Source of the DNA: a virus
IMG/VR virus record: IMGVR_UViG_3300042520_002054
Location: 32,001 to 96,000 of that record
Length of the DNA stretch: 64,000 nt
Reading direction: 5' to 3' (one strand)
The notes under the pieces were generated by a model that was not told the origin of the DNA, made no database searches, and was given only the letters and a program-made list of their open reading frames with translations. Shown here piece after piece: positions 933 to 28,321 of the stretch; position 1 is the stretch's first letter, and the number at the start of each line of letters is the position of its first letter. The translations under genes were made by a program, and so were the position numbers.

Positions 933-1110
933 TCTACAAAATAACCAACATCTACAAAACTACCCCCATAGTTCCAACAGAGAAATGATACCCCCCGGTA
1001 CCCAGTCGCATATGGGGGAGAGAGGATGAGGAGGGGTTAATAACAACCCCCCACCCAGCGCGCAAAGAGGTACCCACCCCCGCCTTGATTCAGCATGTAA
1101 AGCACGGATT

Positions 1111-1212
1111 ATGTATCACTGGTACATCATTTCGGGAGTCAGTATCCTTGCTAAGTCGCTGCGAGAAGCGTATCGCTACTACAGAGACAACTGCAAGGAG
1201 AAAGGTGAGTAG
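1111..1212 (+). CDS. small hypothetical protein (33 aa, MYHWYIISGVSILAKSLREAYRYYRDNCKEKGE)
   Basis: ATG-to-TAG ORF read by eye, first in the plus-strand early region and followed by hairpins. Confidence 0.4.
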   Translation: MYHWYIISGVSILAKSLREAYRYYRDNCKEKGE

Positions 1213-1336
1213 GGATTACTCACGCCCGGCAGCACGACACAGGAGATACTAGACTACACATCTGGTATCTCCTTTATTACCGCTTTATGTGTAATACTCA
1301 CCATCTCTAACAAGTAACATCAAAACCCTAAATATC

Positions 1337-1561
1337 ATGAGAAATCTCAGAAATGTTGTACTACCTGTACAAGTCGTAGCACTCTTCGTGTTACCCGCAA
1401 TCATGCTTACCATCATCATGTCCGCAATTGCTATCATGTTCATGGTATTAACGCCTCTTTCCTACTACGATATCACTACCAGTGTACCTGCAGGAATCTT
1501 CGGATTCATCGGTTACATCTGCATGGTCGTTGCTGTAGGAAACTTTATGTGGGACGAGTAA
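1337..1561 (+). CDS. small membrane protein
   Basis: Two long hydrophobic segments; A-rich leader. Confidence 0.7.
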   Translation: MRNLRNVVLPVQVVALFVLPAIMLTIIMSAIAIMFMVLTPLSYYDITTSVPAGIFGFIGYICMVVAVGNFMWDE

Positions 1562-1698: not shown

Positions 1699-2214
1699 AT
1701 GAGTAAATTAATGCTCTCCCCAGAAGTCTCTGACTTCAAAGAAGGTCTGTTCATCTTAACAGACGAGTCTGGTAATGCTGTACGTCGCTACGAAGATGAC
1801 CCTGAGCAAGGGTTCATTGTCCTCAAGGATGTACAGTTTCGTGAAATCACCTTGCTTACTTCCACACGTCTCCAACTGAAGACACGTCAGGCGCTCTATG
1901 CAGGTCCTGTCGATGTGCTTGAGAAGAAGATTGCTATGTGGGAAAAAGCAGGTAAAATCCCAGGACGTATCCAATCACTGGATATCTTGGAAGGTGACCC
2001 AATCTTAGACAACCTGAAGAACCTCGACAGGTATGTTAAGCGTGCGGGTGAAGACGGACCAGTGCTTACCAAGGACGGTAAAAAGATTTACCACTTCCGT
2101 AAGTACACCGCAAACCCTGACGCTGTCGATATGCTCATCGAGCACGACAACAAAGCGGAAGTCACCACACACCGTGCTGCAGCGCGTCTTGCATCTGCAG
2201 ACCTTGACGCTTAA
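1699..2214 (+). CDS. conserved phage hypothetical protein, paralog of 3063-3542
   Basis: Shares DPxQG, IPGRI, KxAG, HDN and C-terminal ADLDA with the 3063-3542 product. Confidence 0.85.
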   Translation: MSKLMLSPEVSDFKEGLFILTDESGNAVRRYEDDPEQGFIVLKDVQFREITLLTSTRLQLKTRQALYAGPVDVLEKKIAMWEKAGKIPGRIQSLDILEGDPILDNLKNLDRYVKRAGEDGPVLTKDGKKIYHFRKYTANPDAVDMLIEHDNKAEVTTHRAAARLASADLDA

Positions 2215-2231: not shown

Positions 2232-2264
2232 AAGCAGGGTCATCCTTCGGGGTGACCTTGCTTT
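2232..2264 (+). terminator. intrinsic terminator
   Basis: AAGCAGGGTCATC-CTTCGG-GGTGACCTTGCTTT hairpin with a cUUCGg loop. Confidence 0.75.
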
Positions 2265-2302
2265 ATTATTACTCACCATCTTAATATCCTAAAATAAATA
2301 TC

Positions 2303-2812
2303 ATGCGTATTAACCTCGCTTACTTCGAAACGTTACCTACCCTTGTCAATGGTAAGGTAATCGTACTGAACTGTCCTTACGGTAAACACATTGGTTCCGT
2401 TAACGGTAAATCAGTCTCTCTAATCACTGTTGGTAAATACACCACAGTACCTGACGGTGACATTAAAGCAGAGCACTACGACATCCTTCAAACCAGTCAA
2501 TACACTATACTGGTAAACAGCAAGGACGGGTTCTACTTTAAAGTCGTAAAAGACTATTTGGATAATCAAGAAGTCTCTCACATAAGAGAACTATTATTCA
2601 AGTACTCTAATCCCGTAACCTACAGAGTCGGTGACAATGTCCATCTCAAGCATATGAATGGCATCTATAAAATCGACAGCATTCACGGTAGTTTCGTTAG
2701 CATCACTTGTCAAAAGTGGCAACGGTATCCTGAACAGTATTCCCGCTATAAGTTCATAACGCTTGACGACATCAAGTGTCTAGCAGGTGGAATACACAAC
2801 TGGAACCGCTAA
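2303..2812 (+). CDS. hypothetical protein
   Basis: 169-aa ORF with A-rich leader. Confidence 0.75.
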   Translation: MRINLAYFETLPTLVNGKVIVLNCPYGKHIGSVNGKSVSLITVGKYTTVPDGDIKAEHYDILQTSQYTILVNSKDGFYFKVVKDYLDNQEVSHIRELLFKYSNPVTYRVGDNVHLKHMNGIYKIDSIHGSFVSITCQKWQRYPEQYSRYKFITLDDIKCLAGGIHNWNR

Positions 2813-3062
2813 ACGTTTAACACCTAAGCATGTGTCTAAACTGCTTTACTTTAAAAGAACAAAAACAATACTCACCACCGCAGTAAAGACACTACTGCAG
2901 TTTTTTGATCATCAGCATGACATGTCTGATATCCTGCAAATTCCGGTAGTTTTTGGTGGACTACTCGCAACCCTAACTTGCAACAAACAGCATAATCGCT
3001 GAAACAAAAACAGTACCCACCACCGCAATTAATCACTAACAAAACAATTTAAAAGTTCAATT

Positions 3063-3542
3063 ATGAGCAAGAACATCAATCCCAATTTGAAGGTAGTCAC
3101 TGAGTTGACTGCTTATGAGTCTGATCCTAACCAGGGTTGGGTCCGCATGGAAGAAACTTCTTACGTTGATAAGGAGATTTCCCCATTGCGCACTATCGCT
3201 GTAGCTGAGAAGCGCAGCTGTCTGTATTCCGGTTCCATGGAAGCATTGCAAGCAAAGCTTGCTGAATGGAAACGTCAGGGTGGTATTCCCGGTCGTATCC
3301 GTGTAGTAGAGATGGTAGAGTCTGATGCAAAGCAATTTGTCAAAGACATTACCACTCGTGAACCTAAAAAAGCTGGTGACACTGGTGTTATCTGCTGCTT
3401 GGGTGGCGAACCTATCTACCGATTCAGCGCTTATGATGCTACTGGTGAGAAGACAGATACACTGGTTATGCACGATAACGGTGACGCTATCCGAGCAATT
3501 AACGCTCAGCGTCGTCTAGAAACTGCTGACCTAGACGCATAA
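3063..3542 (+). CDS. conserved phage hypothetical protein, paralog of 1699-2214
   Basis: Same shared motifs as its paralog; ends RLETADLDA. Confidence 0.85.
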   Translation: MSKNINPNLKVVTELTAYESDPNQGWVRMEETSYVDKEISPLRTIAVAEKRSCLYSGSMEALQAKLAEWKRQGGIPGRIRVVEMVESDAKQFVKDITTREPKKAGDTGVICCLGGEPIYRFSAYDATGEKTDTLVMHDNGDAIRAINAQRRLETADLDA

Positions 3543-3556
3543 GACGTTATGCGCCT

Positions 3557-3619
3557 ACTATATGGAGCTACAGTAACAGGTTAATCCCTGTTGCTGTACG
3601 CTCTGTGTAGTTTTTGTTT
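3557..3619 (+). terminator. long hairpin terminator or processing stem
   Basis: CTATATGGAGC-TACAGTAACAGG pairs with CCTGTTGCTGTA-C-GCTCTGTGTAG, followed by TTTTTGTTT. Confidence 0.65.
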
Positions 3620-3971
3620 GAGTTAAGTTACAATATCCACGATAATAGAATAATTCCAGTGCGTGCGAGAGTGTGCACGATGGTGTGAGAACCACACCCC
3701 ACACTATTCTTATCGCTTCAAAACTCTGATAAACACTACATTAGTTTCTCAGAACACGGATTAGATAGCTAACTCATTCTTAACGTCCGTATAGGAAGTA
3801 GTATATACTCTCTATATGATTAACTATATATTCTTTAATACGTTCTTTCTATCTATAGGGTTTTTTGTTAGGGATTCTCCCTTAGGTAGAGTTGTAACAC
3901 CGGGGGTTGCATTAGTTGACGGGTGCTTACAGTGTCGCGTCTAGTAACCTTTGGGACCGCAAGGTCTCATA

Positions 3972-4137
3972 ACGCAGGCTAAAATCGGTGTACCATAGAA
4001 AATCAATCTGGTCCAGAAGTATGCAGTATAAGTATTCAGGCTTGTAAACCCTGTTTATAAGTGTTAATACTTATGAGTCATCGTGTTGGTAATGATTATC
4101 TCTTTCTATGCTGTGGGTTCGAATCCCATCTTGCGTT
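3972..4137 (+). ncRNA. tRNA-like RNA with a ~115-nt insert replacing the anticodon arm
   Basis: Acceptor ACGCAGG/CTTGCGT; T arm GTGGG-TTCGAAT-CCCAT; CATAGAAA/TTTCTATG closes the insert. Confidence 0.65.
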
Positions 4138-4236
4138 CTAATTGTATGTGACCACGTAGAGTCTTTATCCACCCGTGATGCAGTAATGTAGGGTGGACAT
4201 ACAATTTTAAAATAAAACCAATCTAATATCTATATC

Positions 4237-4350
4237 ATGAAAAAATCAACTACCCAGAATGTCCAAGACAATGACCGTCTCGCCATTCTATCCGTAACCC
4301 TATTTTTAATCGTAGTTATCAGCTGCATCTTAATTGAAAGGTTATGGTAA
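4237..4350 (+). CDS. small membrane protein (37 aa)
   Basis: MKKSTTQNVQDNDRLAILSVTLFLIVVISCILIERLW, read by eye; overlaps the start of the next gene. Confidence 0.5.
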   Translation: MKKSTTQNVQDNDRLAILSVTLFLIVVISCILIERLW

Positions 4351-4589
4351 TCAAGTTTAACTTCTACACAGTATTCTTCGGGCTGGTCCTTCTATATGGT
4401 GTCTTTCAATACGGAAGAGTCTATGACAAGGACCAACAACCCCAAATTACCGTTGACCAACCACAGTACAATCACATGGTTCAAGTGGATGACTGTACGA
4501 TAGTCATGGATACCCTGGGAAATATCAATTCCATTTGGTATCAAGACAGACCGTACACCCTCGACACCGCAATCTTAGCTGATCTCTGA
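4344..4589 (+). CDS. membrane-anchored hypothetical protein
   Basis: N-terminal hydrophobic helix. Confidence 0.65.
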   Translation: MVIKFNFYTVFFGLVLLYGVFQYGRVYDKDQQPQITVDQPQYNHMVQVDDCTIVMDTLGNINSIWYQDRPYTLDTAILADL

Positions 4590-10567: not shown

Positions 10568-12478
10568 ATGGGTTTCAGAGATTGGTTTAACCGAAAAGAA
10601 GAGAATAATTACTCTTATTATGACAGTTCCCGCAGATTAATATCTTGGGATACAGGTTACAAAAACTATTCTGACTTCCTTGTTGACTCTAAGCGTGGTA
10701 AAAAAGGTATTCAAGATGTTGCAAGTATTTTGAATTCTATGTTGCGTGTTATGGGTGTCTCAAAAGACACCCATTTCACCGGCAAATTAGATGGTAGTAG
10801 TAGAAAACTACAGCTTCCTATTAACTTACTACGAAATAAAGAAACTGGGAATCTTGACATTACTGGTGAACGTGTAGATGCTTTTTATGGTAAAAGTGTC
10901 TTAAATGCGTCATTACAGGGTATGACAAGTACTGACAAACTGCAATACGTAAACGCTGTTGCAAAAGCAAAAAAGAATGGTGATTTACAATCAATGATCC
11001 GTGTTCTTTTAGATGACGAACGTATTCATAGAGAGCTGTCTGAAAATTATCCGGGGTACAGCAAGTTTGCTCAAAAGTATAAAGAACATATATATGAAGG
11101 TGCTGAAAGTTGGTTAGCTAAACCGGCGTCTACAGAACTTGAAGAAGTTGTTCAGCTTTTGACAATGCTTATTCGTTATCCTAAAGATGTTCCATCTGAA
11201 CTTTTAGAAAAATATTCAAAACTTGTAGATTATTTGCAAAGAATATTTAACAAGTTTGACGGTATTCCTAAAACAGCAGAAGAAACTGATAAACTTACTA
11301 AAGCTATCTACAATACTGTAATCAAATATGTAGATGAATCTACACCTCCTCCTTCGACATCTCCTGATGATAAAGGTGAGAGTGAAGACGATTCTTCAGA
11401 TGATGGTGATGGTAGTGATGAATCAGATTCAGAAGACGGTAAAGATCCTTCAGATAAACGCAAAGAAACAAGACGTCGTAGAACTTCTTTAAGTAAAGAT
11501 TTTGCATCTGCTGTTAAAGATGTTTATTCAGAACTTGTTGAAGAATCAACAACAACTGAAGAAGATCATAAAAACGAAGAAGTAGCTAAAACTATTACTG
11601 ATGAGATAAAAAAAGCGGAAGACGCAAGTAAATTTATGAGTCCAAAAGATGATAAAGAACTTGAAAAATCCGGTATACATTTTATTGTACCTGAAGGTGA
11701 TGCTAAACAGTATAACAGCATCAAATCTAGAGTTGATATGACAAAGGCTCAGGTACTTAAAAAGTTGCTTTCTCGTAAAAGTAAAGATTATGACTTTACT
11801 TTAAAATCTATGCGTTCAGGTCGTCTTGACACTAATAAAATTGCTGAAGCTGTTCAGCATGTTCCTACTATCTATGAAAGAATAGGACATGTTAAAACAG
11901 ACAAAATTTGTATTGGTGTACTCATTGATGAGTCTGGTTCTATGTGTGGTAGCGAAATTGAAAAAGCAAAAGAAGCTGCTGTGTTTATTAACGAAGCATT
12001 GGGTAAACTACCTGATGTAGAACTTTTTATTTACGGGCATTCTGCTGATCAAAAAAGTCATCGCAGTACAGAAATCTATACTTATCGTGAACCTGGTAAA
12101 TCATTATCTCCACATGCATTAGGTAGCTGTCGTGCTAGATGTGAAAATCGTGATGGTGTTGCTATTTTAGAAACTGCAAAGCGTATAAGAAAATTCACAA
12201 ATAACAACGGTGTATTATTTGTTTTATCAGATGGTGCACCTGCTGCTTCTGGATATGGTGGTGGATTTGGTATTCGAGATACTAAAGAGAAAGTTAACCA
12301 GGTTGAAAAGACTATGGGCTTTCAGGTAATTCAAATTGCTATAAACAATCATGTACCTTCTGAAGAAATGTTTAATCATTTTGTTAAAATGACTGACATC
12401 AAAAGATTACCTATTGATATGGTAAATTATCTGTCTAAACATATTAATCGTTTGGTTAAAGAAAAGTACACAATGTAA
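10568..12478 (+). CDS. vWA-domain partner protein (CobT/NorD/CbbO-like)
   Basis: SGRLD, MIDAS DESGS, ENRDG and LSDG motifs; acidic linker. Confidence 0.85.
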   Translation: MGFRDWFNRKEENNYSYYDSSRRLISWDTGYKNYSDFLVDSKRGKKGIQDVASILNSMLRVMGVSKDTHFTGKLDGSSRKLQLPINLLRNKETGNLDITGERVDAFYGKSVLNASLQGMTSTDKLQYVNAVAKAKKNGDLQSMIRVLLDDERIHRELSENYPGYSKFAQKYKEHIYEGAESWLAKPASTELEEVVQLLTMLIRYPKDVPSELLEKYSKLVDYLQRIFNKFDGIPKTAEETDKLTKAIYNTVIKYVDESTPPPSTSPDDKGESEDDSSDDGDGSDESDSEDGKDPSDKRKETRRRRTSLSKDFASAVKDVYSELVEESTTTEEDHKNEEVAKTITDEIKKAEDASKFMSPKDDKELEKSGIHFIVPEGDAKQYNSIKSRVDMTKAQVLKKLLSRKSKDYDFTLKSMRSGRLDTNKIAEAVQHVPTIYERIGHVKTDKICIGVLIDESGSMCGSEIEKAKEAAVFINEALGKLPDVELFIYGHSADQKSHRSTEIYTYREPGKSLSPHALGSCRARCENRDGVAILETAKRIRKFTNNNGVLFVLSDGAPAASGYGGGFGIRDTKEKVNQVEKTMGFQVIQIAINNHVPSEEMFNHFVKMTDIKRLPIDMVNYLSKHINRLVKEKYTM

Positions 12479-18706: not shown

Positions 18707-19843
18707 ATGCAGATCACTTTTATCACAAGGCACCAAAGCAAAAAGTCGGGTCTTTCAACCTTGTATGCAAGAATCAGTTTTAGCTCAGAAATTGTAGAAA
18801 TTAAACTACTATTAAAAGCAGGTCCTAACTGGAAAACAGATATAGGAATTAACACTTATTTGAATAAAGTCAGAGAAGAGTTAAATGCTATTTATTATCA
18901 AATGAGCTTAAAGTCTTTACAGATTTCTCCAAAACTTATTAAAAGCGAGTTTGCTAAAAAGACTAAAGTTTATAGTCTATTTGAAGTCTATGACACTTTT
19001 GTTACTAAAATTATTGATTCCAGAATTAAACAGAATGAAATAACTCAGGTGGTAAAAAACAAATACACCTATACTAGAAATCATTTGCAAGATTTTATAG
19101 AATGTAATTTTAGAACAAGTGATATTCCTATCAAGAATATATCACCCCTATTTGTGTCAGATTTTGAAATATTTTTAAGACAGTTTTGTAACCATAACTC
19201 AGCTCTCAAACACTTACACAGGTTAAAATCTGTTGTAATGTATTCTATCAACATTATTAAGTGTTTAGATACAAATCCGTTTGAGCAAAAAATATTAAAA
19301 TTTCAGAAGAATAACCCTGTACATCTTACAATAGATGAGATTAATAAAATAAAAAATAAAAACTTATCTGATAGACTTGACAAAGTAAGAGATGTTTTTT
19401 TATTTCAATGTTATACAGGACTATCTTATAGTGATATTAAATCATTAACTATAGATAACATTGATCTTGATAAAAAGATTATTAGAAAATATAGGGTTAA
19501 AACAAATGTAGAAAGCGTAATCTTTTTGCTAGAACCTGCCTGGAAAATACTTAATAAGTATGATTACAAGCTGCCAATACCTACTAACCAGAAAATGAAT
19601 GCTTATCTAAAAGAGATAAGTACTATTTGTTATATATCAAAATCCTTAACTACTCATACTGCACGACATAGTTTTGCAACATTGTCGTTATCCAATGAAA
19701 TACCAATTAATGTTGTGTCAAAAATGATGGGACATACATCTATCAAATACACAGAACATTATGCAAAGACTTTAGATAATGATATTATAAAACATAACGA
19801 AAAAATGTCTAATCTATTTTCTGACAAATTTGGTTTAAACTAA
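18707..19843 (+). CDS. int: tyrosine integrase, Bacteroidota type
   Basis: N-terminal LYARI arm-binding region, FQCYTGLSYSD, HTARHSFAT, MMGH, TEHY catalytic Tyr. Confidence 0.92.
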   Translation: MQITFITRHQSKKSGLSTLYARISFSSEIVEIKLLLKAGPNWKTDIGINTYLNKVREELNAIYYQMSLKSLQISPKLIKSEFAKKTKVYSLFEVYDTFVTKIIDSRIKQNEITQVVKNKYTYTRNHLQDFIECNFRTSDIPIKNISPLFVSDFEIFLRQFCNHNSALKHLHRLKSVVMYSINIIKCLDTNPFEQKILKFQKNNPVHLTIDEINKIKNKNLSDRLDKVRDVFLFQCYTGLSYSDIKSLTIDNIDLDKKIIRKYRVKTNVESVIFLLEPAWKILNKYDYKLPIPTNQKMNAYLKEISTICYISKSLTTHTARHSFATLSLSNEIPINVVSKMMGHTSIKYTEHYAKTLDNDIIKHNEKMSNLFSDKFGLN

Positions 19844-27310: not shown

Positions 27311-28321
27311 ATGTTCAGGGTTCGAGATTATGTCCACGATTTTACAGAAGTACCTTCCACATGGATCTTTGAGTACTATCTCAATTTATCTCAACAACTG
27401 CACGGACAAACAGTCTTAATACGCAGTGTGTTTAACAGTAAGGACAAAAATCCTTCGCTGTCTATTTATTACAATCGTCACCTCCAACAGTACAGGTTCA
27501 AATGTTTTTCGACAGGTATAGGAGGTTCGGCGATCGACCTTATGCAACACTTATGGAAGGTTGATTTTCATACTGCAACTAAAAAGATAATTGACGACTA
27601 TGTTCAATTTATTAACAGCGGTAAGAGTTTCAATCGAACTATTTATGAAGGTGCTACATGGAGAGTCAAGGATTACACACCTCGAATCTGGAATACAAAC
27701 GACGCTAAATACTGGACACCTTTCAATATTGACAGTAAACTTTTAGAAAAATACAATGTGGTTCCTTTGGACAACTATGTAATGTTTCGTAAAAAAGGTT
27801 CTGAATGTCAAGATGATGAGTCCTTTATCACTAAAAGTGAATACATATATGGTTTCTTTAACCGAGATGGTAAATTGTATAAAATTTATCGACCGTTAGA
27901 TAAAGAACGCAAATTCTTAAAGATTGGAAACTACTTACAGGGATTGGACCAGTTAGAAATGCTGGATTACCTTGTAATAGTTTCCTCTCTTAAGGATATA
28001 ATGTGTATGAAATCTTTAGGTTTTAAGGTAGATTTAGTTGCGCCAGATAGTGAAAACTCGACATTGTCAGAACAGCAAATAGATGAATTCAAAGCAAACT
28101 ATAAAGCTGTTATAACTCTATTTGACAATGATGATGCAGGTATTAAAAACATGAAGAAATACGAGGAGTTGTATAAACTCCCCTTTGTGTATTTACCTAT
28201 GAGTAAAGATGTAAGTGACTCTGTAAAGCAGTTCGGTAAAGAGAAAGTTCTATATGAACTTGCACCAAGGTTGCAACGAGCGATTGAAAAATATGAAGAA
28301 TATCATCCTGAAAATACGTGA
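27311..28321 (+). CDS. DNA primase (TOPRIM)
   Basis: Degenerate Zn-finger FKCFSTG, SSLKD, FDNDDAG, KDVSD. Confidence 0.85.
   Translation: MFRVRDYVHDFTEVPSTWIFEYYLNLSQQLHGQTVLIRSVFNSKDKNPSLSIYYNRHLQQYRFKCFSTGIGGSAIDLMQHLWKVDFHTATKKIIDDYVQFINSGKSFNRTIYEGATWRVKDYTPRIWNTNDAKYWTPFNIDSKLLEKYNVVPLDNYVMFRKKGSECQDDESFITKSEYIYGFFNRDGKLYKIYRPLDKERKFLKIGNYLQGLDQLEMLDYLVIVSSLKDIMCMKSLGFKVDLVAPDSENSTLSEQQIDEFKANYKAVITLFDNDDAGIKNMKKYEELYKLPFVYLPMSKDVSDSVKQFGKEKVLYELAPRLQRAIEKYEEYHPENT

What the first reader, a model, noticed from the sequence alone, without database searches (positions are those of the whole stretch)
3972..4137. tRNA-shaped RNA with tmRNA-like topology but non-alanine identity
Seen: a 7-bp acceptor ACGCAGG/CTTGCGT, a perfect T arm GTGGG-TTCGAAT-CCCAT (4113-4129) and a stemless D-loop-like segment (3979-3993). 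In place of the anticodon arm is a long helix, CATAGAAA (3994-4001)/TTTCTATG (4103-4110), continued by AATCA/TGATT. It encloses ATAAGTATT (4028)/AATACTTAT (4066) and a tiny ORF MQYKYSGL* (4021-4047). Established: acceptor, D loop without stem, long P2 and T arm is the layout of tmRNA's tRNA-like domain. However, tmRNAs are usually far longer and need G3-U70 and an A discriminator, which are absent here (U discriminator, no CCA). Inference: an undescribed phage tRNA mimic expressed very early. It could be a decoy for anticodon nucleases or uncharged-tRNA sensors, a minimal ribosome-rescue RNA, an RNase P/Z processing tag, or an intron-containing tRNA.
Basis: partly seen in the sequence, partly recalled or inferred. 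Interest (0 to 1): 0.8.

Follow-up and report, generated by a model that had tools for sequence, protein, structure and literature searches.

The report
Anticodon-less tRNA look-alike in freshwater phage
A small group of freshwater phages keeps an RNA shaped like the top half of a tRNA, with a long fast-changing hairpin where the anticodon arm should be; it cannot read codons, is not a tmRNA, and most likely serves as a handle for the host's tRNA-trimming enzymes.

Summary
Window 3972-4137 (+) folds as described: a 7-bp acceptor stem, an unpaired D region with GG, a 117-nt irregular hairpin, a 2-nt linker and a canonical T arm. ARAGORN and Rfam do not call it.

It is conserved in 8 related contigs, giving 6 distinct sequences. 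Stem changes are compensatory or G-U-compatible on the + strand only.

It is not a tmRNA: pair 3:70 is G-C in 6 of 6 sequences, no tag ORF is conserved and no tmRNA model matches. It is not an intron-bearing tRNA either, because it has no D stem or anticodon loop.

It follows a 110-nt structured, conserved leader and lies 20-30 nt upstream of a small membrane-protein gene in the relatives, 99 nt in the window. It was not found in 24 more distant relatives, including a syntenic one.

The arm is about 35% identical between lineages, against 61-64% at fourfold sites, yet it stays paired.

The closest annotated kind is phage T5 RNA1, a "tRNA-like stable RNA with unknown functions".

Best reading: a tRNA-derived processing or mimic module, a new variant of a known kind. 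Its function and expression are unproven.

The parts
3855..3887 (+). Most conserved block of the region (about 97% identical over 33 nt in all relatives), holding hairpin H1 (AGGGA 3870-3874 / TCCCT 3878-3882). It may be the transcript start or a protein-binding site. Its CTATAGGG resembles the end of a T7-type promoter, but the motif is not repeated in the genome.
3862..3971 (+). Structured leader. H2 is a long-range helix (3903-3910 with 3944-3951) that encloses hairpin H3 (3918-3941). Hairpin H4 (3952-3957 with 3964-3969) ends 2 nt before the acceptor stem.
   Evidence: 28 predicted pairs, 1 with a change on both sides, and 6 with one-sided changes that keep pairing; one sequence has a C-A mismatch in H4; 76-80% identical to relatives, against 61-64% at fourfold sites.
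3972..3978 (+). 5' strand of the acceptor stem (ACGCAGG), invariant in 6 of 6 sequences. A3972 is the predicted RNase P cleavage site.
3979..3993 (+). Unpaired D-like region with an invariant CUAAA and GGUGU. The GG is placed to contact the T loop as G18/G19 do in tRNA.
   Evidence: the contact itself is inferred
3994..4110 (+). 117-nt irregular hairpin in place of the anticodon arm. Its base, CAUAG/CUAUG, is invariant. The rest is about 35% identical to the relatives' arm but fits the same series of helices.
4021..4047 (+). Tiny ORF MQYKYSGL*. It is not conserved in the five other sequences and is judged fortuitous.
4111..4112 (+). Invariant 2-nt linker CU between the arm and the T stem
4113..4129 (+). 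T arm: a 5-bp stem plus the UUCGAAU loop. Two of its 5 pairs carry changes on both sides among the six sequences.
4130..4137 (+). 3' strand of the acceptor stem (CTTGCGT) plus discriminator U. No CCA is encoded. The relatives have TCTGCGT, so the G-U and G-C pairs swap places.
4140..4206 (+). Window-only inserted hairpin (-22.1 kcal/mol, z -3.4) followed by UU-AAAA. It is absent from all relatives and is only weakly terminator-like; the terminator scan did not call it.
4237..4350 (+). Downstream gene for a 37-aa hydrophobic protein. In the relatives its homologue starts 20-30 nt after the element.

Best explanation
The element is a tRNA-derived RNA module that can no longer decode. It keeps what host tRNA-end enzymes recognise: the coaxial acceptor/T-arm minihelix and a D-loop/T-loop elbow. 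The D stem and anticodon arm have been replaced by one long hairpin.

It is transcribed on the + strand, between a 159-aa gene and a small membrane-protein gene, directly after a 110-nt structured leader.

The proposed mechanism has three steps:
- Host RNase P cuts before A3972.
- A 3' tRNA-end activity (RNase Z or exonucleases, then the CCA-adding enzyme) trims after U4137.
- These cuts separate the leader from the downstream mRNA and release a stable tRNA-like RNA of about 166-185 nt.

Shown here: the fold, its conservation, selection on its pairing, its strand, and the absence of tmRNA and tRNA hallmarks. Inferred only: transcription, the two cuts, CCA addition and any role of the released RNA.
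For: - Fold and statistics.
- Six distinct sequences from 9 contigs, counting the window.
- On the five relatives, 98.2% of 220 pair cells are standard pairs. The covariation score exceeds 500 of 500 shuffles, and 4 pairs changed on both sides (10 of 500 shuffles reach that count).
- With the window added, 97.7% of 258 cells pair and 17 pairs changed on both sides (0 of 500 shuffles). Every slid control is below 56% paired. This alignment was fitted to the model, so it leans towards the structure.
- In the T arm, 2 of 5 pairs changed on both sides and 1 on one side. In the acceptor stem, 2 of 7 pairs swap G-U and G-C and 5 are invariant.
- G-U pairs occur only on the + strand, and the minus strand folds 12 kcal/mol worse.
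- The elbow residues and the 2-nt linker are invariant.
- In 5 of 6 sequences the downstream ORF starts 20-30 nt after the element with no hairpin between, as expected for a processing signal inside an operon.
- The phage's own tRNA-Arg also lacks an encoded CCA, so the missing CCA does not argue against tRNA-type maturation.
- The leader and top half are more conserved (71-87%) than fourfold sites (61-64%).
- Contigs from 4 RNA libraries of 4 studies cover 3008-4002 or parts of it.
- An annotated precedent exists: T5 RNA1 is tRNA-derived with an extended anticodon arm.
Against: - No read-level evidence exists for a transcript, for ends at 3971/3972 or 4137/4138, or for added CCA. The RNA runs are contigs and may hold DNA.
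- The base at -1 is A, not the U that bacterial RNase P prefers (a recalled rule).
- A plain processing signal needs neither a 117-nt arm nor selection on its pairing. Other phage look-alikes noted by this scan are 48-107 nt (unchecked notes).
- The element is confined to a narrow clade. At E <= 0.1, 5 of 24 more distant relatives had any match. The best was a shared hairpin without a T loop, and the other three alignments inspected were tRNA-like; the remaining weaker matches were seen only as table rows of 29-126 nt. A syntenic relative has only a terminator hairpin at the site.
- The 3' top half is only 71-77% identical, modestly above the neutral 61-64%.
- Relatives of this phage carry several degenerate tRNA-like genes, so decay of tRNA copies is common in this group.
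Confidence: 0.45

Rival explanations
1. It is a trans-acting tRNA mimic or decoy. The processed RNA occupies a host factor that recognises the tRNA top half, such as a defence nuclease or transferase acting on acceptor ends, a sensor of uncharged tRNA, EF-Tu or a synthetase. The long arm is a fast-evolving specificity or evasion module.
For: - The arm is about 35% identical between the two lineages while fourfold sites are 61-64% identical, yet its pairing is kept. This suggests diversifying selection or repeated replacement.
- The top half and elbow residues are invariant.
- The acceptor set A1-U72, C2-G71, G3-C70, U73 is invariant in 6 of 6 sequences. It shares C2-G71, G3-C70 and U73 with the bacterial glycine identity set (recalled).
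- In RNA run X15, contig depth falls from 104 to 14 at 4002/4004. That would fit further arm variants on a window-like backbone.
Against: - No partner was identified.
- The element has no anticodon loop, so it cannot decoy anticodon nucleases.
- The phage record (81% complete) has no SmpB, CCA-adding enzyme, Ro, RtcB or reverse transcriptase that might use it.
- Arm divergence could equally reflect recombination with an unsampled lineage.
- The identity estimate for a gapped hairpin is rough.
- The depth drop has other explanations, for example a 1-nt indel variant at 4003 that breaks contigs.
Confidence: 0.2
2. It is a cis-acting 5'-UTR element of the small membrane-protein gene. Leader plus tRNA-like fold would control translation or stability of the mRNA that starts 20-30 nt downstream, without being cut out.
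For: - The 37-aa hydrophobic ORF is immediately adjacent in all variants.
- The whole 3543-3971 stretch is conserved above the neutral level.
- In the 276-nt fold the leader hairpin GGGAUUC can pair with GAAUCCC of the T arm, which gives an alternative conformation.
Against: - That alternative pairing is not conserved. The relatives have a UUCGAUU T loop, which gives a U-U mismatch (read).
- A syntenic relative has the homologous small gene without the element.
- The window copy carries a 67-nt extra hairpin between the element and the ORF.
Confidence: 0.12
3. It is a decaying tRNA gene copy (pseudogene) with no function.
For: - It is clearly tRNA-derived.
- Its distribution is narrow.
- Relatives carry ARAGORN-negative tRNA-like remnants, among them a 63-nt form without an anticodon arm and a 126-nt form with an insert.
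- A Flavobacterium tRNA cluster holds similar oddities.
Against: - Every stem substitution among the six sequences keeps pairing in the acceptor and T arms.
- 97.7-98.2% of pair cells are standard pairs, although sequence divergence exceeds that of fourfold sites.
- The elbow residues are invariant.
Confidence: 0.1
4. It is an intron-containing tRNA whose arm is spliced out to give a decoding tRNA.
For: The insert sits where anticodon-loop introns sit, and its sequence differs between lineages as introns do.
Against: - No D stem exists in any of the 6 sequences.
- No anticodon stem-loop remains after removing the arm.
- The arm is far shorter than group I introns (recalled to be over 200 nt).
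- Rfam finds no intron model at E <= 10.
- ARAGORN with introns allowed and lowered thresholds gives only a weak solution that uses a different acceptor.
- The phage record has no RtcB.
Confidence: 0.03
5. It is a minimal tmRNA-like ribosome-rescue RNA.
For: The topology matches the tmRNA tRNA-like domain: acceptor stem, stemless D loop, a long P2-like helix running straight into the T arm.
Against: - Pair 3:70 is G-C in 6 of 6 sequences, and the discriminator is U.
- The only short ORF is window-specific.
- Default ARAGORN calls no tmRNA and Rfam has no tmRNA match at E <= 10.
- The phage record has no SmpB.
Confidence: 0.02
6. It is an attP or integration-site remnant that copies the 3' end of a host tRNA gene.
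For: - The phage has a tyrosine integrase at 18707-19843.
- 22 bacterial contigs match the degenerate 3'-half pattern, and those that ARAGORN calls include Bacteroidota tRNAs.
Against: - The integrase lies 14.6 kb away.
- The 5' acceptor strand, the D region and the arm are conserved and paired as well, which an att core does not require.
- No bacterial genome among the 22 pattern hits carries the element or phage proteins next to the hit.
Confidence: 0.03

Closest known systems
Phage T5 RNA1 (misc_RNA rna1, AY543070 30501-30644, annotated 'tRNA-like stable RNA with unknown functions'). The stable 'species 1/2' RNAs of T4 are a similar case, recalled and not checked here.
   Same: It is phage-encoded and tRNA-derived, keeps the acceptor stem and T arm, has its anticodon arm extended into a long hairpin so it cannot decode, and has no known function.
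   Different: - T5 RNA1 keeps a class-II-type D arm and a variable arm. It is 144 nt long and lies inside the tRNA gene cluster.
- The element here has no D stem and no variable arm, and its arm is 117 nt.
- It lies between protein genes behind a structured leader, 3.1 kb from the nearest tRNA, which is on the other strand.
- No homology is detectable: model R1 gives no hit on RNA1 at E <= 10.
tRNA-like domain of tmRNA (Rfam RF00023)
   Same: The order of parts is the same: acceptor 5' strand, stemless D loop with GG, a long helix that runs almost directly into the T arm, then the acceptor 3' strand.
   Different: - It has no G3-U70 pair, and its discriminator is U rather than A.
- It has no conserved tag ORF and no pseudoknots were found.
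- It is about half the usual tmRNA length.
- Neither Rfam nor default ARAGORN calls it a tmRNA.
tRNA-like processing modules inside longer transcripts: plant mitochondrial t-elements and the vertebrate mascRNA/menRNA modules (Rfam RF01684). Both are recalled and were also named in earlier scan notes.
   Same: A tRNA top-half mimic embedded between functional units of a transcript, where RNase P and RNase Z cuts define the ends.
   Different: Those are eukaryotic or organellar, short (about 60 nt) and experimentally shown to be cut. Here the arm is long and cleavage is untested. RF01684 gave no match at E <= 10.
Bacterial Y RNA-like YrlA (Rfam RF02553; Chen et al. 2014, PMC4201824, seen only as a search listing with the start of the abstract)
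   Same: A non-coding RNA with a tRNA-like domain, also found in some phages.
   Different: In YrlA the RNA ends close the long stem and the acceptor-like stem is capped (recalled), which is the opposite topology. RF02553 gave no match here, and the phage record has no Ro/TROVE protein.

Membership tests
tmRNA (RF00023) | tRNA-like domain: acceptor stem, T arm, stemless D loop and a P2 helix | tested here: met
   Sequence reading and MFE fold
tmRNA (RF00023) | G3-U70 alanine identity pair and an A discriminator | tested here: not met
   Pair 3:70 is G-C and the discriminator is U in 6 of 6 sequences
tmRNA (RF00023) | Conserved tag-peptide reading frame with a stop codon | tested here: not met
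   MQYKYSGL* occurs only in the window copy; the five relatives have another arm sequence
tmRNA (RF00023) | Match to the covariance model or a tmRNA finder | tested here: not met
   No tmRNA hit at E <= 10. Default ARAGORN finds none. Only a 'permuted tmRNA' artefact appears at lowered thresholds.
Canonical tRNA (RF00005) | Cloverleaf with a D stem and an anticodon stem-loop, scoring at or above the gathering threshold | tested here: not met
   Partial match of 15.2 bits against a gathering score of 29. Default ARAGORN makes no call. No D stem is present in any of the 6 sequences.
Canonical tRNA (RF00005) | 7-bp acceptor stem, 5-bp T stem with G53-C61, a UUCRA T loop and GG in the D region | tested here: met
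Intron-containing tRNA | The exons alone form a complete cloverleaf with an anticodon | tested here: not met
   Removing 3999-4105 or any sub-part leaves no D stem and no 7-nt anticodon loop. ARAGORN with introns allowed gives only a weak alternative.
Phage tRNA-like stable RNAs (T5 RNA1 type) | tRNA-derived gene with an extended, non-decoding anticodon arm | tested here: met
   Folds of both RNAs
Phage tRNA-like stable RNAs (T5 RNA1 type) | Sequence or structure homology to T5 RNA1, and a location in the tRNA cluster | tested here: not met
   R1 gives no hit on RNA1. The nearest tRNA is at 804-878 on the minus strand.
Phage tRNA-like stable RNAs (T5 RNA1 type) | Accumulates as a discrete stable RNA | not testable with these tools
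   Only contigs of RNA libraries could be laid
tRNA-like processing signal (t-element / mascRNA kind) | Embedded between functional units of one transcript, without a terminator of its own | tested here: inconclusive
   It lies on the same strand as both flanking genes. 5 of 6 variants have no hairpin before the next ORF. Co-transcription is not shown.
tRNA-like processing signal (t-element / mascRNA kind) | Cut by RNase P at the 5' end and RNase Z at the 3' end | not testable with these tools
   Needs read ends or enzyme assays
YrlA / Y RNA-like (RF02553) | Model match, a Ro-binding stem formed by the RNA ends, and a Ro protein nearby | tested here: not met
   No RF02553 hit in 3600-4500. TROVE is absent from the phage record.

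The most novel reading that the evidence does not exclude
The roughly 280-nt RNA (structured leader plus an anticodon-less tRNA body) yields a CCA-tailed, possibly aminoacylatable tRNA mimic. Its acceptor set is invariant (A1-U72, C2-G71, G3-C70, U73). Its 117-nt arm is a rapidly diversifying specificity module in an arms race with a host system that senses or attacks tRNA top halves. If so, phages would evolve tRNA-framed decoy RNAs the way they evolve anti-defence proteins.
Probability: 0.12. Interest if true: 0.75.

Novelty: new variant of a known kind. Interest (0 to 1): 0.45.

Why it matters
Non-decoding tRNA look-alikes have been annotated in phages T5 and T4 for decades without a known function, and this scan keeps finding more of them (unchecked notes).

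This case adds three things:
- A clean example outside a tRNA cluster.
- Placement inside an operon, behind a conserved structured leader.
- An arm that has diverged further than synonymous sites while keeping its pairing.

If RNase P/Z cutting is shown, it would document tRNA-type punctuation of phage mRNAs in a probable Bacteroidota host. If the arm proves to be under diversifying selection, it would point to an RNA-level interaction with the host that is worth chasing.

As it stands it is a solid new RNA family of narrow distribution, with no demonstrated function.

Tried and rejected
**Pattern scans**
- exact 22-mer of the 3' half in viral contigs, 0 hits.
- gap set too short (my slip), 0 hits. 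Corrected, which gave 8 loci: 3 true relatives and 5 chance matches next to ordinary tRNAs.
- the leader's 19-mer returned the same 3 viral contigs.
- the metagenome scan with the 3' pattern gave 5 contigs. Three duplicate the viral sequences (same length and model score).

**BLAST**
- the phage collection gave no match for 3600-4500.
- the window's arm, extra hairpin and leader have no second copy in the genome or in 106 loci, apart from the orthologous leaders.

**Upstream protein**
- the 159-aa upstream protein has only 3 homologue clusters, so it could not widen the family.

**Model R1 searches**
- in 24 whole records of DNA-polymerase relatives, 5 had matches at E <= 0.1. The best match (G009, 25.6 bits) shares only the arm's apical hairpin motif and has no T loop.
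- I inspected the alignments for L098, L105, L099 and L100. L101, L102 and L104 I saw only as table rows.
- 151 genomes of the family of G027 gave nothing at E <= 1e-4. With no positive control, this is uninformative.

**Apical hairpin as an operator**
- it is single-copy in G025 and G009 (a second G009 pattern match is a different sequence) and absent from G000, so the idea of a repeated operator was dropped.

**T7-like promoter**
- The CTATAGGG motif is not repeated in the genome. The PF00940 search rang in no control genome, so it says nothing.

**RNA runs**
- Contigs of 4 RNA libraries stop at 3980, 4002, 4002 and 4023.
- Three of the 4 have no cover over 4024-4211.
- No DNA run was laid beside them, and a 1-nt indel variant at 4003 can break contigs. 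I draw no conclusion about RNA ends or about the uncovered part.

**Other ideas**
- Sarcin-ricin motif in the arm (AGUA/GAA): the GAA is not conserved in the window copy, so it was rejected.
- Origin from a Flavobacterium tRNA-Trp-like gene (L114): the likeness was largely imposed by the search pattern, and no phage proteins lie nearby. I kept it only as a hint.

**Literature**
- Four searches listed no paper describing this element. I saw only listings and the starts of abstracts and read no paper. Supplements were not consulted.
Full report
**1. Observation**

- Acceptor ACGCAGG 3972-3978 pairs with CTTGCGT 4130-4136 (six Watson-Crick pairs and one G-U).
- The discriminator is U4137 and no CCA follows.
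- The T arm is GTGGG-TTCGAAT-CCCAT at 4113-4129.
- A 15-nt D-like region contains GG and is unpaired.
- A hairpin spans 3994-4110 and is closed by CATAGAAA/TTTCTATG.
- The 8-codon ORF lies at 4021-4047.

An unconstrained fold gives exactly this layout: -45.1 kcal/mol, z = -3.21, with 0 of 200 shuffles folding as well. The reverse complement reaches only -33.2 kcal/mol.

Standard detectors do not call it:
- Default ARAGORN finds one gene in the window, tRNA-Arg at 804-878 on the minus strand.
- Rfam at gathering thresholds finds only that tRNA.
- Rfam at E <= 10 over 3600-4500 gives three weak hits. The only relevant one is a 15.2-bit partial tRNA match (gathering score 29) to 4069-4137. Nothing matches tmRNA, YrlA, mascRNA or intron models.
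- ARAGORN with lowered thresholds and introns allowed returns only poor alternatives, such as a 'tRNA-Thr' using another acceptor and a 'permuted tmRNA'.

**2. Genome and host**

The window is part of a 97,308-nt IMG/VR virus record that is 81% complete. Its genes include:
- DNA polymerase, primase, helicase and an exonuclease;
- ribonucleotide reductase and a CobS/CobT-like pair;
- a tyrosine integrase at 18707-19843;
- very long tail-fibre genes.

The runs that hold the stretch are freshwater and lake metagenomes, apart from one marine run. Only 1 of 35 genes has a Shine-Dalgarno-like 4-mer upstream, the upstream regions are A/T-rich, and GC is 35.5%. A Bacteroidota host is therefore plausible but not shown.

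The element lies in a 694-nt gap between protein genes on the + strand, with the 159-aa ORF 3063-3542 upstream and a 37-aa hydrophobic ORF 4237-4350 downstream.

**3. Relatives and selection on structure**

A flanking ATPase gene retrieved three viral contigs, and a 3'-half pattern retrieved five metagenome contigs. All carry the element at the same place. Three of the metagenome copies duplicate viral ones (same length and model score). That leaves five distinct 'L002-type' sequences plus the window copy.

On the five relatives alone, the consensus structure has 44 pairs:
- 98.2% of 220 cells are standard pairs, and the slid controls reach 28-51%.
- 4 pairs changed on both sides (10 of 500 shuffles reach this count).
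- The covariation score exceeds all 500 shuffles.

A covariance model built from these five (R1) finds the window copy at 55.5 bits, E 3e-11. Ordinary tRNAs scored 7.6-31.1 bits across all R1 searches, and reverse-strand self-hits on the training copies reached 30.3 bits.

In the model-fitted alignment of all six sequences:
- 97.7% of 258 cells pair.
- 17 pairs changed on both sides (0 of 500 shuffles).
- The slid controls stay at 29-55%.

This alignment leans towards the structure by construction. The two helices that need no fitting are clear, though:
- **T stem:** G-U/U-A/G-C/G-C/G-C in the window; G-U/C-G/A-U/G-C/G-C, G-C/C-G/G-C/G-C/G-C and G-C/C-G/A-U/G-C/G-C in the relatives.
- **Acceptor stem:** its G-U and G-C pairs swap places while five pairs stay invariant.

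G-U pairs occur on the + strand only. These parts are invariant: the GG of the D region, U54-U55-C56-G57-A58, G53-C61, the 2-nt linker CU, the base of the arm (CAUAG/CUAUG) and the 5' flank CAUA.

**4. The arm**

Between the window and the L002-type, the arm (4002-4102) is about 35% identical in a global alignment. For comparison:
- 61-64% at fourfold-degenerate sites of six neighbouring genes (362 of 591 and 385 of 605 sites);
- 73-87% in the noncoding 3543-3971;
- 71-77% in the 3' top half.

So the arm has diverged further than presumably neutral sites, yet it still fits the same series of helices. Within the L002-type the arm also shows compensatory changes, for example ACGAUA/UAUCGU against AUAAU/AUUAU, and A-U against G-C in the apical stem.

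I cannot tell accelerated evolution from replacement by recombination with an unsampled lineage. The identity figure for a gapped hairpin is also rough.

The apical hairpin motif of two relatives (TTTGTCACA, 13 nt, TTTGTGACAA) recurs once in a more distant phage, G009. There it lies in the divergent promoter region of the same gene block and has no tRNA-like frame. This remains unexplained.

**5. Context**

The 110 nt before the element (3862-3971) fold into a conserved set of four helices: H1, a long-range H2 that encloses H3, and H4 ending 2 nt before the acceptor. One pair changed on both sides. Six pairs changed on one side while keeping pairing. The exception is a C-A mismatch in H4 of one sequence.

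A 33-nt block at 3855-3887 is about 97% identical in all relatives.

In five of six sequences the small membrane-protein ORF starts 20-30 nt after the discriminator with no intervening hairpin. The window alone has an inserted 67-nt hairpin at 4140-4206 (-22.1 kcal/mol, z -3.4). It is followed by only two further U's, and the terminator scan did not call it.

The phage's own tRNA-Arg gene also lacks an encoded CCA, so the missing CCA here is uninformative.

**6. Distribution**

The leader 19-mer and the element patterns return only the same three viral contigs.

DNA-polymerase relatives at 56-63% identity are numerous: 429 confirmed loci, of which 80 were kept. R1 searched over 24 of their whole records, 6 of them at least 90% complete, and found no copy of the element.

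Five of the 24 had some match at E <= 0.1. The best is the G009 hairpin. The other three alignments I inspected were tRNA-like, including two in G009 that ARAGORN misses.

G009 is syntenic. After its homologue of the 159-aa gene it has only a terminator-like hairpin before its small membrane-protein gene.

A degenerate 3'-half pattern over 185,579 species genomes gave 22 hits, none of which carries the element. The nearest look-alike is an odd 79-nt tRNA-Trp(CCA) in a Flavobacterium tRNA cluster, with the same ACGCAGG acceptor strand. Most of that likeness was imposed by the pattern, and no phage proteins lie nearby.

**7. Expression**

Six RNA libraries hold part of the stretch. Contigs of four of them, from four studies, cover 3008-4002 or parts of it at 90-100% identity. 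Contigs cannot show strand, ends or level, and DNA carry-over is not excluded. Transcription is therefore plausible but not shown, and 'very early' is untested.

**8. What it is not**

- **tmRNA:** the topology of the tRNA-like domain is met. G3-U70, the A discriminator, a conserved tag ORF and a model match are all not met. The phage record has no SmpB.
- **Intron-bearing tRNA:** no D stem or anticodon stem-loop survives any excision, and the record has no RtcB.
- **Y RNA-like:** there is no model match and no Ro protein, and the topology is the opposite one.
- **attP remnant:** the integrase is 14.6 kb away, and the 5' strand, D region and arm are conserved too.
- **Retro-element:** no reverse transcriptase is present.

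**9. What it most likely is**

It is a tRNA-derived, non-decoding module. It retains the acceptor/T minihelix and elbow that RNase P, RNase Z and the CCA-adding enzyme recognise (established biochemistry, recalled).

Its place inside an operon, right after a structured leader and just before the next ORF, fits a processing ('punctuation') signal that also releases a stable tRNA-like RNA.

The long, selected and fast-diverging arm suggests that the released RNA does something more. That keeps the mimic or decoy reading alive.

The closest annotated kind is phage T5 RNA1, 'tRNA-like stable RNA with unknown functions'. Its fold shows a class-II tRNA body with an extended anticodon arm. R1 detects no homology to it.

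Earlier notes of this scan list several similar phage look-alikes. I used them as leads only and checked the T5 lead myself.

**10. Verdict**

The element is real, conserved and not in Rfam. It is a new variant of a known but functionally unexplained kind, and its function is unproven. Four literature searches listed no description of it; I saw only listings and the starts of abstracts.

Noticed in passing
window 2262-2856 (ORF 2303-2812, 169 aa): This block is present in the window but absent from all three viral relatives, where 11 nt replace it. It is an indel of one whole gene of unknown function, with no PHROG hit.
   Followed up: no
window 1699-2214 and 3063-3542: The 171-aa and 159-aa ORFs are paralogues. 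Both hit the same two 163-aa genes of the relative G009. Neither has a Pfam or PHROG family, and the 159-aa protein has only 3 homologue clusters in 5.8 billion proteins.
   Followed up: partly
window 940-1340: In the divergent region between tRNA-Arg (minus strand) and the first + strand ORF there are odd C-rich and G-rich runs. There is also a stretch (about 1105-1165) that resembles G009 near 11,930-12,000 + 300, of the form TTATGTATCAYTGGTA...TTGCTAAGTC. It could be another structured RNA, a promoter or an origin region.
   Followed up: no
L013 12167-12410: One metagenome relative carries a 122-nt tandem duplication covering the promoter-like region and the first half of the leader, including the 33-nt ultra-conserved block.
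   Followed up: no
L105 1194-1256 and 1501-1626 (G009:C1:27019-27081 and 27326-27451): A related phage has two tRNA-like genes that ARAGORN does not call. One is a 63-nt form with acceptor, D and T arms but no anticodon arm. The other is a 126-nt class-II-like form with an insert. Their acceptor stems are near-identical (AGUCAGG with CCUGACU or CCUGAUU).
   Followed up: partly
L114 3064-4100 (Flavobacterium sp. ST-119 contig): This is a cluster of unusual tRNAs. It includes a 79-nt tRNA-Trp(CCA) that scores best as tRNA-Sec-like (33.5 bits, below the gathering score). A 171-nt stretch (3627-3797) has a 7-bp acceptor stem, a D arm, a T arm and an insert of about 105 nt, and no tool calls it.
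   Followed up: partly
genome G000:C1:80716-80790 and 81096-81171 (outside the window): In the rest of the record ARAGORN finds a tRNA-Thr(TGT) and a 'tRNA-???' with a 2-nt anticodon call.
   Followed up: no
window 18707-19843: A tyrosine integrase gene lies inside the replication gene block of a roughly 100-kb phage. No attP was looked for. No lysogen was found among the 22 bacterial contigs that match the element's 3'-half pattern.
   Followed up: partly
window 4002-4004 in RNA run X15: Contig depth drops from 104 (3008-4002) to 14 (4004-4299), and another run has a 1-nt deletion at 4003. This may mean further arm variants on a window-like backbone. It is unresolved.
   Followed up: no
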